From contig OX597823.1 of the NCBI GenBank assembly GCA_951406725.2, positions 31,806,001-31,870,000 on the forward strand: 64,000 bases of DNA. Reading direction: 5' to 3'. The first letter of the stretch is position 1. Each line of letters starts with the position of its first letter. The notes under the pieces are model-generated. The model was given only the letters and a program-made list of their open reading frames with translations. It searched no databases and was not told the DNA's origin. The stretch comes from Octopus vulgaris. Taxonomy: Eukaryota. Of the stretch, positions 12,798 through 59,204 are shown piece after piece. The position numbers and the translations under genes were made by a program.

Positions 12798-13147
12798 TCA
12801 CACATACAAGTAAATGTGAATAATCATAGTTACGTATGTGTACACAGACACATGCACGCACATACGTGTTTGGCATAAGTATCAGAAGAACTTCATATTG
12901 TTCTTAAAGTCATCTTATATCAGCCATGGACCACTATCATCCACCCTTCTTTGCCACTCATATTCACTAGTATGTGCCTCTGTACAGTGATATACTGTAC
13001 AGCTCTCTCTCTCTCCACTTTTACTGCCTCTACCTTCCCTCCTACGCCTGTCATTTCCCTATCCTCAATTTTATTATTATTATCATTATGCACTTCTTCA
13101 CTGTTTCTGTGCTGCCAGTCAGCACCTACTCTCCCCCAAGCCACATT

Positions 13148-13623
13148 TATATATTTTTGAGATGAGGAATCATGTACATTATTCACACCGGACAGAGGTG
13201 TCCTCACCTTGTTTGTTGTTACCACAACATTCCGGCTGATGTACCCTCCAGCCTTCATCAAGGTGTCATGGAATTTCGATCCCCAACCCTTTATATGACT
13301 AATGGGGTACTCTGTTCTCATTCCTAAGGTATTCTTTTTTGCCTACAGGCATATAGTGTAGCGGATAAGAGCATGGGCTACTAACCCTCAAATTCTGAGT
13401 TCAATCCCTGGCATGGACTAAGGAAATAATATCAGCAGAAAAAAATTACATCAGCAAAATAAAATACCTTAGGGATGAGAACAGTGTACCCCATTAGTCA
13501 AATAAAGGGTTGGGGACTGAAATTCTACCAGAACACCTGATGAAGGCTGGAGAATACTTCAGCCAAAACACTGTGGAAACAACAAACAAGGTGAGGACAC
13601 CTATTCATCCATTGTAAATAATG
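13148..13623 (+). mobile_element. Composite element D: inverted HHR unit, tRNA-derived head, HHR unit
   Basis: 13178-13333 is the reverse complement of 13463-13623; head 13348-13412 has A-box TAGTGTAGCGG and B-box GAGTTCAATCC; HHR-like core acac-ctgatga-a-ggctg…cagcc-aaaac at 13533-13570. Confidence 0.75.
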
Positions 13624-48597: not shown

Positions 48598-48735
48598 ACC
48601 AGGTTTGAAGATTCCCCAAGACGCCCAATGAAGGCTGGAGGGTATATCAGCCAAAATGTTGTGTTAACAACAAACAAGATGAGGACAAATATCTGTCAAA
48701 TGTAAATAATTCCTCATCTTTTAAATATAGAACAG
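48598..48735 (+). mobile_element. Solo HHR unit of element D (core mutated)
   Basis: ccaaga…atgaaggctggagggtatatcagccaaaatgttgtgttaacaacaaacaagatgaggac…aattcctcatc…aaatatagaac, matching 55866-56020. Confidence 0.8.
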
Positions 48736-51326: not shown

Positions 51327-51358
<32 letters not shown>

Positions 51359-51366
<8 letters not shown>

Positions 51367-51648
51367 AAAGGGCTTAGTAAAATAAATTACTTTGCCGCAT
51401 ACTGAACTCATTAGAAATAGCAGCTAAAAAACTTTTTTAAGCTATTTCTAATACTTAAAGAAAATCTCTCTCATATATAGCGTTTGCTTAATTCAACTCA
51501 CAGTTGTGAGTTGAATTAAGCAAACGCTATATATGAGAGAGATTTTCTTTAAGTATTAGAAATAGCTTAAAAAAGTTTTTTAGCTGCTATTTCTAATGAG
51601 TTCAGTATGCGGCAAAGTAATTTATTTTACTAAGCCCTTTTATATAAT
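51359..51648. repeat. Perfect palindrome: 144-bp arms, 2-nt spacer
   Basis: 51359-51502 is the exact reverse complement of 51505-51648 (centre caactcaca-gt-tgtgagttg). Confidence 0.95.
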
Positions 51649-51826
51649 GTAATAATTTGAATTCGCCTTAAATGGTCCCTTTGCATACTGAACACTTGGT
51701 GAAATTGATTAATAATTAATTAATTTTACCCTCAATTGTTGAAATTATATATATATATATATATAATGGTATATTTGCAACCAAATACGCACATGAACTA
51801 TGATATATATATATATATATATATAA

Positions 51827-55185: not shown

Positions 55186-55254
55186 TGTATGTATATATGT
55201 ATGTATATATGTATGTATATATGTATGTATATATATATGTATATATATATATAT

Positions 55255-56132
55255 TGAAATATTAGTGCTAAGCAGTGTTTAGGCATAAGCAAAATATAGA
55301 TTAGTTGAAATATGTTTTGTGAAGTATTTCAACTGCTAAAAGCCAAATACACTGCAGTTACCATGGATAATATATCTCTCTTATAGGGTGTTTTCACACC
55401 TTTTTACCATAAGAATGATATATTTTCAACAGTAACTGCAGTACATTATTTATATTTACCGGATATTTGTCCTCATCTTCTTTGTTGTTAAAACAATGTT
55501 TCGGCTGATATACCCTCCAGCCTTCATCAGGTGTCTTGGGGAAATTTCGAACCTGGGTTCTCATTCCTAAGGTATTTTTCGATATCATCATCATCATCGT
55601 TTACATTATTTACATTTTATGGATAGTTGTCCTCATCTTGTTTATTGTTGACTCAAAGTTTCAGCGGATATACCCTCCAGCCTTCATCAGTTGTCTTGGG
55701 GAAATTTTGAACCTGGGTTTTCATTCCTACGGTATTTTTCAATGTTGTTGTTGGTGGTGGTATCGTCATCGTCGCCGCCGTCATCATTGTTGTTGACTAT
55801 CTGGAATTGAACTCAGAATCTTGGTGTTAGTAGCCTGTGCTCTAACCACTACGTAATAATAACATAGAATGAGAATCCAGGTTCGAAATTTCCCCAAGAC
55901 ACCTGATGAAGGCTGGAGGGTATATCAGCCAAAATGTTGCGTTAACAACAAACAAGATGAGGACAAATATTTGTTAAATGTAAATAATGTACATAATTCC
56001 TCATCTCTTAAATATAGAACTGTAGTAACTGCAATGTATTTGTCTTTTAGCTGTCGAAATATGTCAGAAACATATTTCAACTAACCCAAATTTTGCTTAT
56101 ACCTAAACACTACTTAGCACTGACTTTTCAAA
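55255..56132 (-). mobile_element. Composite element D: tRNA head plus two tandem HHR units on -, inverted HHR unit on +, outer inverted arms
   Basis: Head 55853-55796 (-); ccttcatcag cores at 55521 and 55681 (160-bp spacing); inverted unit 55866-56020; 55255-55361 is an imperfect reverse complement of 56025-56132. Confidence 0.8.
55490..55535 (-). ncRNA. Minimal type I hammerhead motif (best-preserved family D copy)
   Basis: GACAC-CTGATGA-A-GGCTG gagggtatat CAGCC-GAAAC-ATT-GTTTT; consensus across copies gives GAAAC GTT GTGTT (palindromic stem III, stem I GACAC/GUGUU). Confidence 0.65.
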
Positions 56133-56444
56133 ATATACACACACTCACTCACACATTACATACAGATAAAGGATTATTGTTTGAATACTGATTTTGCATA
56201 CTACAAACAAGAGAATTCAGTACTGTATGTCAAGGGGATACATCACCTTACTTGAAAATAGATGAAGGTTTGTGACAGTTAGGACATCCAGCTGTAGAAA
56301 ATGTGCCTCAATAAACAATGTCTGACCCATGCAAACATGGAAAACTTGACATTAAAACAGTGACCATAATGATGATTCATACACACACAAATACTTTTAT
56401 ATACATGCGTGTGTGTGTGTGTATTTGTGTATCGCTGATGTATA

Positions 56445-56820: not shown

Positions 56821-57989
56821 TTTTGCTGATGTATAATAGAAAAATATGTAAGAATCGATAAGAAACCACAAAATGTTTTTTCTTTCAAAGTTTCTTGTGA
56901 CATTTGTTCTGCACCAAGTTACAGTCACTCTCTTGTCACTGTCGCCATCAGAAAATAAGTAACCTATCTATAACCAGTAACACTGCTGTTTGTCAGTTAC
57001 TGTATAATGTCAAAATATGATAGATGCATGCGTGTATATGCTAGTGTATACAAAGCTCCCTTAATTAATTAATATTGTAAAAGTCATCAAATTAATGCCA
57101 AATTTAAAAACAAATTAATGAAAGAAAATGTTGGGCCACAAGAAATTCCAAGATGGAAAAAAGATTTTAGAAAATAGTTTCCAAGCAACTGCTTGATCTA
57201 AATAGCTATTTTACACTCCACTTGGCACTTCTTTGAGAATGGGGGGAAGGAAGGGGTTAGGGTGCACTTTCTCTTTCCCCAACTGTGCTGTGCTTATGTT
57301 AAACCAAACAACCCAGAACCACCGACCCTGTGGGAGAGAACATCTTTCATTATCACACCATATGATAACTCTTGTTATTCTCTTTCACTCCAGATACACT
57401 CCTCCCCCCTCTCTTACTCTCTTTTTTTCTCATCTTCTTCTGGAATTCTGCTGAGTATATTGTTTTTACCATTTCCCAACATCCAGTCTATTCTTTTTTA
57501 AACTCTCAGGATTGGATTTTTTGCCTTTCTCCCCCCCATCCCATCAAATTTTTAGGGTCTTCCAGCCCCAACTTGCAGATACATTATTTCTATTTAGGTT
57601 AAAAGGAATATTTTGCTTTTGTCTGATTGTGTGTGTGTGTGTGTGTGTGTGTGTATTCATATATGTCTATGTGCATTTATAAATATATGTGTGTGTGACT
57701 ACATAGACGCGTGAGTATGTATGCTTGCATATGTGTGTCTGTGTTTATGCAAATGTACATACATACCTCTATGTGTGTTTGTGTGTGTGTGTGTAAACAG
57801 TCATGGCTGTGTGTTTAAGAAGTTCACTTCCCAACCACATGGTTTTGAGTTCAATCCCACTGCATGGCACCTTGGGCAAGGGTCTTCTACTCTAGCTCAA
57901 GACACACGAATGCCTTGTGATCAGATTTGACATACAGAAGCTAAAATACAGGTGGATGAGCATGTGTTTGTATGTGTCTCCTTGTCTTC

Positions 57990-58480
57990 ACATCATCATC
58001 ATCATCATCATCCATCATTTTAAATCCAGGTTTTGTCCCCGTTGCAGGGGTGGCTGTATCTACCTCAATGCCATAGCAACCGCCCTCACACCGTCTCGCC
58101 ATCTTGCTCGGTTTTGGGTGTCCTCCCTTCTCAAGCCCAGCCCTTCCAATCTCCTCCACCTGTCCCCTCCACATTTTCGTCAGTCTACCTTGCTTCCGCT
58201 GTCCATTTACCTCAAACTCTAGCACCCTCCTCAGAACATGCTCTTCGTCCCTCCTCAACACATGCCCATACCACCGCACTCCATTCTCCCTTGCCAGCCA
58301 TTTCACTGATTCCTCCAACCCCAGCATCCCCATCGAGTCCTCAGTCCTCCTTTTATCAAACAGCCTCATGCCACACTTTTCTCTCACCATTGCTCTCTCA
58401 GTTCTTTTCAAAATCGCCATCTCTCTCTCCCTCAAACACCATGTCTCACTCCCATACAGCATTGTAGCTCTCACACGTGA
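57990..58480 (-). mobile_element. RTE LINE 3' end with (GAT)n tail
   Basis: ORF 57941-58474: MLYGSETWCLRERE…RTERAMVR…VRWYGHVLRRDEEHVLRRVLEFEVNGQRKQGR, typical RTE C-terminal region. Confidence 0.92.
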
Positions 58481-59204
58481 TATTAGTAAACCTACTTCAT
58501 GATCAAAGAAGCAGTGTCATTCATTTCCAAACTTCCATGAAAGTGTGTCCAACCATAAGAAAAATATTACCTTTCTTGAGAGCAGGTGAGAGTTGTTAAC
58601 AGGTAGAGCTTCCAGCTATAGAGAATCTGCCTTAACAAATCCTGTCTGACCCATACAAACCTAGGAAAGTAGATATTCAAATGATGATGATGATGTCTAT
58701 GTGTGCACGTGTAATGTATATACCTTTCATCTTTTACTTGATTCCATTATTGGACTGCAGCCATACCGCAGCACCATCTTGAAGGGTTTAGTCAAACAAA
58801 TTGGCCCCAGTATTTATTTTCTAAGCCTGATACTTATTCTACCAGTTTCTTTTGCCAAAGTGCTAAGTTACAGGGATGTAAACAAACCAACACTGGTTGT
58901 AAACACACACACACACACACACACACATATATGGTTTTGGTTGGACCAAGGCTATAGTAGAAGACACTTGCCCAAGGTGCTATGCAGTGGGACTGAACCC
59001 AGGTCCATGTTGTCAGGAAGCAAGCTTCTTACCACACAGCAATGCTTGCATCTATATATGTGTCTATCTTATTTTTAAATGGCAGATGTTACAAAGTGCT
59101 TCAGGGGCCAAGCGTTTTGTGTACGGCACCTATCAAACCACTTGTTCTCAAGCAACTTTGTAACTTCTGTACCAATTAAAAACAAAAGGTATATATACAC
59201 TCAT

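What the first reader, a model, noticed from the sequence alone, without database searches (positions are those of the whole stretch)
13148..13623. Independent second locus with the same inverted-unit / tRNA-head / HHR-unit layout
Seen: 13178-13333 and 13463-13623 are inverted copies around a tRNA-like head (13348-13412, same gggctactaac…gagttcaat motif as at 55.8 kb). Both arms share a subfamily-specific segment (gtaccccattagtca…aaagggttgggg) absent at 55 kb. Inference: the arms arose together, and the 5' inversion is a recurrent product of the integration mechanism rather than chance nesting. A read-through transcript would form ~155 bp of dsRNA.
Basis: partly seen in the sequence, partly recalled or inferred. 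Interest (0 to 1): 0.7.

Follow-up and report, generated by a model that had tools for sequence, protein, structure and literature searches.

The report
Penelope end-repeat with tRNA-derived start
This 477-base palindrome is one decayed, back-to-back insertion of the end repeat of a protein-coding Penelope-type jumping gene, a layout already described for such elements; the unusual part is that the repeat begins with a tRNA-derived sequence that likely acts as a promoter for its many short copies.

Summary
Observation confirmed: the arms are 83% alike around a tRNA-Arg-like head. The unit is not a stand-alone SINE. [quoted passage not shown] The 'HHR unit' holds the first ~60 codons of the ORF, and the 'subfamily-specific segment' is an in-frame 9-codon indel. 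The inversion is mechanistic. 43 of 58 head-anchored copies have an inverted piece at the 5' end (0 of 58 at the 3' end). 52 of 59 classifiable pairs carry the 34-nt tail on exactly one arm. 36 of those 52 have outer target duplications of 8 bp or more (2% in controls; none at this locus). All this is published PLE anatomy. Not found in my searches: a tRNA-derived box at the pLTR start, where 46 of 58 copies begin, likely a Pol III start. Against Pol III reading the whole ORF: 6 of 8 ORF-start copies run upstream of the box, and T-run depletion is not significant. The scan has already reported this family at other loci in this genome.

The parts
13147..13177 (-). one-sided 'tail' (element positions about +278 to +307; +1 = first base of the tRNA-like box); in long copies it is the sequence that runs on into the ORF body
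13178..13342 (-). inverted, 5'-truncated pLTR arm (element +109 to +277); holds the ORF start codon (13321-13319) and a decayed hammerhead motif (about 13222-13267; extra T in the core, GAAA changed to GGAA)
13339..13342 (.). 4-bp microhomology (TTGC) joining the inverted arm (+109) to the forward copy (-8 to -5)
13339..13623 (+). forward pLTR copy, element -8 to +277, ending without the tail
13347..13421 (+). tRNA-Arg-derived box; A-box-like 13354-13364 (decayed), B box 13399-13407
13475..13623 (+). start of the element's ORF (ATG 13475-13477); includes the subfamily A in-frame 9-codon segment (about 13484-13512)
13534..13575 (+). minimal hammerhead motif, decayed in this copy (core CTGATGA 13537-13543 intact; GAAA changed to AAAA, helix III palindrome lost)
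55442..56023 (.). second insertion, subfamily B: two tandem arms and head on the minus strand (55442-55852), tailed arm on the plus strand (55855-56023), 10-bp TSD at 55431-55440 and 56024-56033
48599..48733 (+). solo 5'-truncated subfamily B arm with tail

Best explanation
The block 13147-13623 is a single old insertion of two head-to-head pieces of the terminal repeat of a protein-coding Penelope/Poseidon-type retrotransposon, likely made when both nicked target strands primed reverse transcription on element RNA at its two start sites and the two cDNAs were joined at a microhomology. Shown: the repeat continues upstream into an RT plus GIY-YIG-like ORF and downstream into the ORF's N-terminus; pairs carry the tail on one arm and TSDs outside; at this locus each arm holds sequence the other lacks. 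Inferred: two primings about 34 nt apart (tail end and +277), staggered nicks of about 8-13 bp, and a template whose 5' end lay at about -7, most likely a Pol III transcript from the tRNA-derived box at the pLTR start. Short copies are likely by-products of the same source elements, not a separate SINE lineage.
For: ORF linkage: upstream of heads lies the ORF C-terminus; RVT_1 scores 34.6 bits against a 29.6 cut-off in L187; the C-terminal frame is 39% identical to P0007 across its Pfam GIY-YIG domain; partial tandems run pLTR, tail, ORF; ATG at +130 and an in-frame A/B indel. Inversion: 43 of 58 at the 5' end, 0 of 58 at the 3' end; 3 of 10 insertions in a 1-Mb fixed-position sample. Tail: of 70 unique pairs, 52 one-tail, 3 no-tail, 4 two-tail (all 5' pLTRs that run on into the ORF), 11 unclassified. 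TSD of 8 bp or more in 36 of 52 against 2.0% of 2652 mismatched pairings. Subfamily agreement in 57 of 59 pairs; shared non-CpG variants 37 against 19.5+-3.7 (A) and 8 against 2.1+-1.3 (B). Tail on the more truncated arm in 23, on the longer arm in 19, equal in 10. 5' ends: 46 of 58 between -18 and +8, 12 exactly at -7, none from -19 to -44. Short and long copies are not separable (nearest-neighbour p 0.68 and 0.67). PMC11167929 reports both strands cut and extended and two RT start sites that bound the tail.
Against: No TSD is recognisable at this locus, and 16 of 52 pairs lack one of 8 bp or more. The arms here share no private variants and are no closer than other copies. The head-anchored sets are the best-scoring 30 of 867 and of 1373 candidates, so 74% is probably high (3 of 6 head-bearing copies in the fixed-position sample). 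RNA reads fall on both strands about equally and show no start peak. Palindromes at pLTR 5' ends occur in rotifer PLEs, where the passages I read describe a TATA/Inr-type promoter instead, so the fixed 5' end need not be a Pol III start. The element's own C-terminal frame gave no Pfam GIY-YIG hit. Only 5 long B copies entered the lineage test.
Confidence: 0.85

Rival explanations
1. Fold-back self-priming: one cDNA snaps back on itself (or synthesis runs on an antisense template) and copies its own sequence; the endonuclease then resolves the hairpin and leaves the tail on one side.
For: A native hairpin spans -7 to +5, and short palindromic fold-backs at the head start occur (429 RNA reads with such loose ends at that place). 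PMC3846280 and PMC8557442 propose self-priming and EN-mediated resolution.
Against: In 23 of 52 pairs, this locus included, the shorter arm has the tail that the longer arm lacks, so neither arm can be a simple copy of the other's cDNA. A longer precursor trimmed by the endonuclease is not excluded.
Confidence: 0.2
2. The short head plus HHR copies are an independent tRNA SINE lineage that parasitises Penelope enzymes.
For: 46 of 58 head-anchored copies start at the box and carry only the first ~60 codons; B box matches in 57 of 81 copies; precedent of tRNA plus hammerhead SINE-like Sm-alpha.
Against: The same sequence is the pLTR of ORF-bearing copies in both subfamilies. No diagnostic positions in A (0 of 227) and one at p 0.009 of 206 in B; distances within and between short and long copies are alike.
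Confidence: 0.15
3. Chance nesting of independent insertions, or a MITE-like DNA transposon with terminal inverted repeats.
For: The window is repeat-dense (3164 inverted pairs); no TSD at this locus.
Against: About 10 insertions per Mb predicts about 0.03% neighbours within 60 bp in this orientation, against 43 of 58 seen and 0 of 58 tail-to-tail. Arm lengths vary freely, ends are asymmetric and copies run into an RT ORF.
Confidence: 0.02

Closest known systems
EN+ Penelope-like elements, e.g. Adineta vaga Pen2a (PMC3846280, passages read) and the general scheme in PMC8557442 (passages read)
   Same: pLTR overlapping the ORF start, partial tandems, adjacent inverted pLTR head-to-head, 30-40 bp tail on one arm, 8-10 bp TSD round the whole insert, palindrome at the pLTR 5' end
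   Different: Pen2a's pLTR has a putative TATA/Inr promoter; here the pLTR begins with a tRNA-Arg-derived A/B box about 55 nt before the ATG, and most head-bearing copies start at it
Poseidon PAc of Anolis carolinensis (PMC11167929, parts 1-2 of 4 read)
   Same: RT then C-terminal GIY-YIG; hammerhead at the ORF start; two internal RT start sites bounding the tail; both strands cut and extended
   Different: no tRNA-derived box in the parts read; here the ATG lies 34-61 nt before the hammerhead core, not at stem II
Minimal hammerheads of metazoan PLEs (PMC4209133, part 1 of 4 read)
   Same: short helix I (3 bp in A, 5 bp in B), an unpaired A before helix II, palindromic loop-less helix III; dual motifs 100-700 bp apart on opposite strands were noted in Schistosoma
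   Different: helix II is 6 bp here against 7-8; both motifs at this locus are decayed
Schistosoma Sm-alpha / Sj-alpha (second-hand in PMC6765202 and PMC2770079, passages read)
   Same: tRNA-derived Pol III promoter joined to a hammerhead
   Different: described as non-coding SINE-like tandem repeats; here the unit is the end repeat of a coding element and inserts as inverted pairs
TRIMp3 elements Helenus, Ajax, Cassandra (PMC10886601, passages read)
   Same: small-RNA-derived promoter inside a terminal repeat
   Different: non-autonomous LTR elements, whose autonomous partners are expected there to use Pol II; here the box sits in the repeat of the autonomous element

Membership tests
EN+ Penelope-like element (C-terminal EN type) | RT ORF linked to the repeat | tested here: met
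   RVT_1 over cut-off in 1 of 4 frames, just under in 1; linkage
EN+ Penelope-like element (C-terminal EN type) | C-terminal GIY-YIG endonuclease | tested here: met
   indirect: 39% identity to P0007 over its above-cut-off GIY-YIG domain; no direct Pfam hit on the element's own frame
EN+ Penelope-like element (C-terminal EN type) | pLTRs from partial tandems, overlapping the ORF start | tested here: met
   L228, L298, L306, L308; ATG at +130
EN+ Penelope-like element (C-terminal EN type) | inverted 5'-truncated copy and one-sided 30-40 bp tail | tested here: met
   43 of 58; 52 of 59 one-tail; tail 34 nt
EN+ Penelope-like element (C-terminal EN type) | short TSD round the whole insert | tested here: met
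   36 of 52 pairs against 2.0% control; not seen at this locus
EN+ Penelope-like element (C-terminal EN type) | minimal hammerhead motif in the pLTR | tested here: met
   helices and core in the majority sequence; strict pattern intact in 4 of 81 copies; no Rfam hit; cleavage not testable here
EN+ Penelope-like element (C-terminal EN type) | RT phylogeny within the Penelope/Poseidon clade | not tested
   no named PLE proteins were returned; the clade name rests on domain order and recalled motifs
tRNA-derived SINE | tRNA-derived head with A and B boxes | tested here: met
tRNA-derived SINE | transcription by Pol III from the head | tested here: inconclusive
   genomic 5' ends cluster at -7; RNA reads show no strand bias or start peak
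tRNA-derived SINE | non-autonomous lineage distinct from its partner | tested here: not met
   short and ORF-linked copies intermixed
tRNA-derived SINE | LINE-derived 3' end with poly(A) or simple-repeat tail (recalled) | tested here: not met
   3' ends are two fixed internal sites of the PLE ORF start
Non-LTR retrozyme / Sm-alpha type | non-coding tandem repeats with a hammerhead in each unit | tested here: not met
   copies are dispersed singles or inverted pairs tied to an ORF; tandem arms are rare (L005, 55 kb)
L1-type twin-priming 5' inversion (recalled) | inverted part is a different, upstream segment of the RNA | tested here: not met
   both arms repeat the same 3' segment

The most novel reading that the evidence does not exclude
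A protein-coding Penelope element has made a tRNA gene its own promoter and is read by RNA polymerase III through its whole ~2.6-kb ORF (0-1 runs of four T per 2 kb in ten long copies), so that it is an autonomous retrotransposon and the source of its own SINE-like copies at once.
Probability: 0.15. Interest if true: 0.75.

Novelty: new variant of a known kind. Interest (0 to 1): 0.4.

Why it matters
Two things add value. First, a tRNA-derived box built into the pLTR of an autonomous PLE would give SINE-like copies without a LINE partner, and such copies are easily mis-annotated as SINEs. Second, an estimated 13,000-52,000 insertions form a natural data set on the unsettled PLE integration mechanism; the one-tail rule and the non-nested arms favour two coupled primings over simple fold-back. 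The palindromes would form dsRNA where they are transcribed.

Tried and rejected
Rfam and ARAGORN (only at -ps70, subfamily A only) do not call the head or the hammerhead. PDB sequence search: no hit. T-run test: mononucleotide shuffles expect 3.7-5.4 runs of four T against 0-1 seen in ten non-independent copies, but a codon-aware null expects only 2.2-3.0 and 20 tilings gave p 0.04-0.92, mostly above 0.1, so it is not evidence for Pol III. Sequencing-run search: no RNA holder listed; one raw-read RNA run under another species label gave reads on both strands and no start peak. The hammerhead core counts were dropped because the slice cut the subfamily B motif. No TSD was found at the finding, also not within 12-17 kb for the flank words tried. 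No host exon was evident among 37 frames of 120 aa or more, judged by eye. My first reading, that the box lies in a 3' UTR, was dropped. Literature searches that returned nothing describing a tRNA-derived PLE pLTR, judged from listings and the passages read. Repbase, Dfam, subscription papers and all supplements were not seen; the repeat library behind PMC13282606 and the supplement of PMC8557442 could hold this family.

Full report
Observation. The arms are real: 13177-13342 and 13454-13623, 83% identical over 171 columns. A further ~31 bp on the left (13147-13177) has no partner on the right. The head between them matches the one at 55.8 kb. Rfam and ARAGORN do not call it. The subfamily A majority aligns best to this genome's tRNA-Arg(TCT), score 63 against at most 42.5 in 300 shuffles; subfamily B scores 52 against tRNA-Arg(TCG) (27 distinct tRNA sequences from 30 loci, not all isotypes). 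Element coordinates below take the first base of the tRNA-like box as +1 (window 13347).

What the unit is. The host genome has 2.8 Gb in 227 contigs; earlier notes call it octopus-like, which I did not establish. Upstream of many heads lies the decayed end of an ORF whose stop is about 30 nt before +1. Open frames from such copies hit RVT_1 (1 of 4 over the cut-off, 1 just under). The C-terminal frame is 39% identical to P0007 across that protein's GIY-YIG domain. In long copies head, arm and tail run straight on into the ORF's N-terminal region, some preceded by another endonuclease end, which is the partial tandem of Penelope-like elements. So head plus HHR unit is the pLTR, and the finding locus (subfamily A) and the 55-kb locus (subfamily B) come from two related source elements. 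Contigs of runs under four other species labels bridge the ORF end and the head.

Is the inversion more than chance? I sampled 100 fixed-position 10-kb stretches: 10 insertions, 3 with an inverted partner, that is 4.8-18.4 per Mb. Head-only searches gave 60 loci; dropping the finding itself and one duplicate left 58. Of these 43 have an opposite-strand piece of 30 bp or more within 60 bp of the 5' end, and 0 have one at the 3' end. Random co-insertion predicts about 0.03% (my arithmetic). These loci are the best-scoring heads, so 74% is probably an upper figure.

One event. Pooling all loci fetched up to and the window gave 82 divergent pairs, 70 after removing duplicates. Of 59 with both ends classifiable, 52 have the tail on one arm only. 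Three have none next to the arm (in two a tail piece lies further out beyond a later insertion), and 4 'two-tail' cases are 5' pLTRs that run on into the ORF. An exact direct repeat of 8 bp or more flanks 36 of the 52 pairs against 2.0% of mismatched pairings. The 55-kb pair has a 10-bp TSD; the finding has none that I can recognise. Its inner junction is a 4-bp microhomology.

Here the arms differ by 15.2%, and from other A copies by 14.7% on average; family means are 13.2% against 14.2% (A, 29 pairs) and 9.3% against 10.1% (B, 17 pairs). That is what arms copied from one source and then decaying separately should show. Arms agree in subfamily in 57 of 59 pairs and share non-CpG variants above permutation: 37 against 19.5 in 35 A pairs and 8 against 2.1 in 30 B pairs. 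None is shared at this locus.

Mechanism. PMC11167929 (parts 1-2 of 4 read) shows for anole PAc that both strands are cut and extended and that RT starts at two internal sites bounding the tail. That fits the two fixed outer ends here (+277 and +311 in A). The tail sits on the more truncated arm in 23 pairs, on the longer in 19, equal in 10. At this locus the left arm has the tail and the right arm has the head, so neither is a copy of the other's cDNA. I infer two coupled primings joined at a microhomology. Fold-back with endonuclease trimming (PMC3846280, PMC8557442; passages) remains possible and probably explains short palindromes at the head start.

The tRNA-derived box. In 47 of 58 head-anchored copies the script put the 5' end at -18 to +8; one (L074) is ORF-linked through a deletion, leaving 46. 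Twelve end at -7 and none between -19 and -44; the downstream side is censored by the query. This points to an RNA 5' end just before the box, likely a Pol III start, but RNA reads did not show it. Short and long copies are not separable (45 A and 36 B copies, only 5 long B), so I do not call it a separate SINE. For the bolder reading, that Pol III reads the whole ORF, which I took from earlier notes: T-runs are scarce but not significantly so under a codon-aware null. Of 30 copies holding the ORF start, 8 reach the box region; 2 begin there (one is the query locus) and 6 run upstream (2 of them through deletions), against 46 and 12 for head-anchored copies (p 0.004). Long templates therefore mostly began further upstream, though possibly at an earlier box.

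Comparison with what is known. Inverted pLTR, one-sided tail, TSD, ORF overlap and minimal hammerhead are all described for PLEs. A tRNA promoter with a hammerhead is known from schistosome Sm-alpha (second-hand), and small-RNA promoters in terminal repeats from TRIMp3. Part 1 of 5 of bioRxiv 10.64898/2026.07.22.740005 derives retrozymes from pLTRs. Passages of PMC13282606 and PMC6962438 list cephalopod Penelope and SINE classes without this link. Nine searches found no description of a tRNA-derived pLTR; repeat databases and supplements were not seen.

Verdict. A real, decayed copy of a known kind of insertion, from a PLE family with an unusual tRNA-derived pLTR start. New variant of a known kind; interest 0.4.

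Noticed in passing
window 55248-55440 and 56024-56137: The 55-kb insertion landed inside an older hairpin element whose two ends are ~113-bp inverted repeats (MITE-like), which makes the palindrome there look longer than the PLE insert.
   Followed up: partly
window 55442-55743; L005:1782-2225: Tandem arms (two and three copies) within one insertion, probably template jumps near the RT start site.
   Followed up: no
L166, L201, L216 (after the AAT run of the subfamily B linker): A different coding retroelement has inserted into the (AAT)n linker in several copies; likely a microsatellite-targeting non-LTR element (recalled: Dong/R4-like).
   Followed up: no
L168, L169, L173, L178, L179, L183, L184, L188 (contig C31): Eight 95-98% identical 3.4-kb loci spread over megabases of one contig: a duplicated segment carrying a PLE copy; left out of the lineage and T-run tests.
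   Followed up: no
L282, L283, L287, L290, L291, L296, L297, L302: Copies that hold the ORF start, then jump to a 3' pLTR piece after 250-450 bp: internally deleted mini-elements.
   Followed up: no
window 57941-58516 (minus strand): 191-aa frame that looks like the C-terminal end of an RTE-type LINE (recalled motif; not scanned).
   Followed up: no
window 51356-51651: Near-perfect 147-bp inverted pair with a 2-nt spacer; may be microsatellite-derived.
   Followed up: no
L257-L280: Many of the genome's tRNA hits are variant Lys(TTT) and Thr copies, suggesting amplified tRNA-derived repeats.
   Followed up: no
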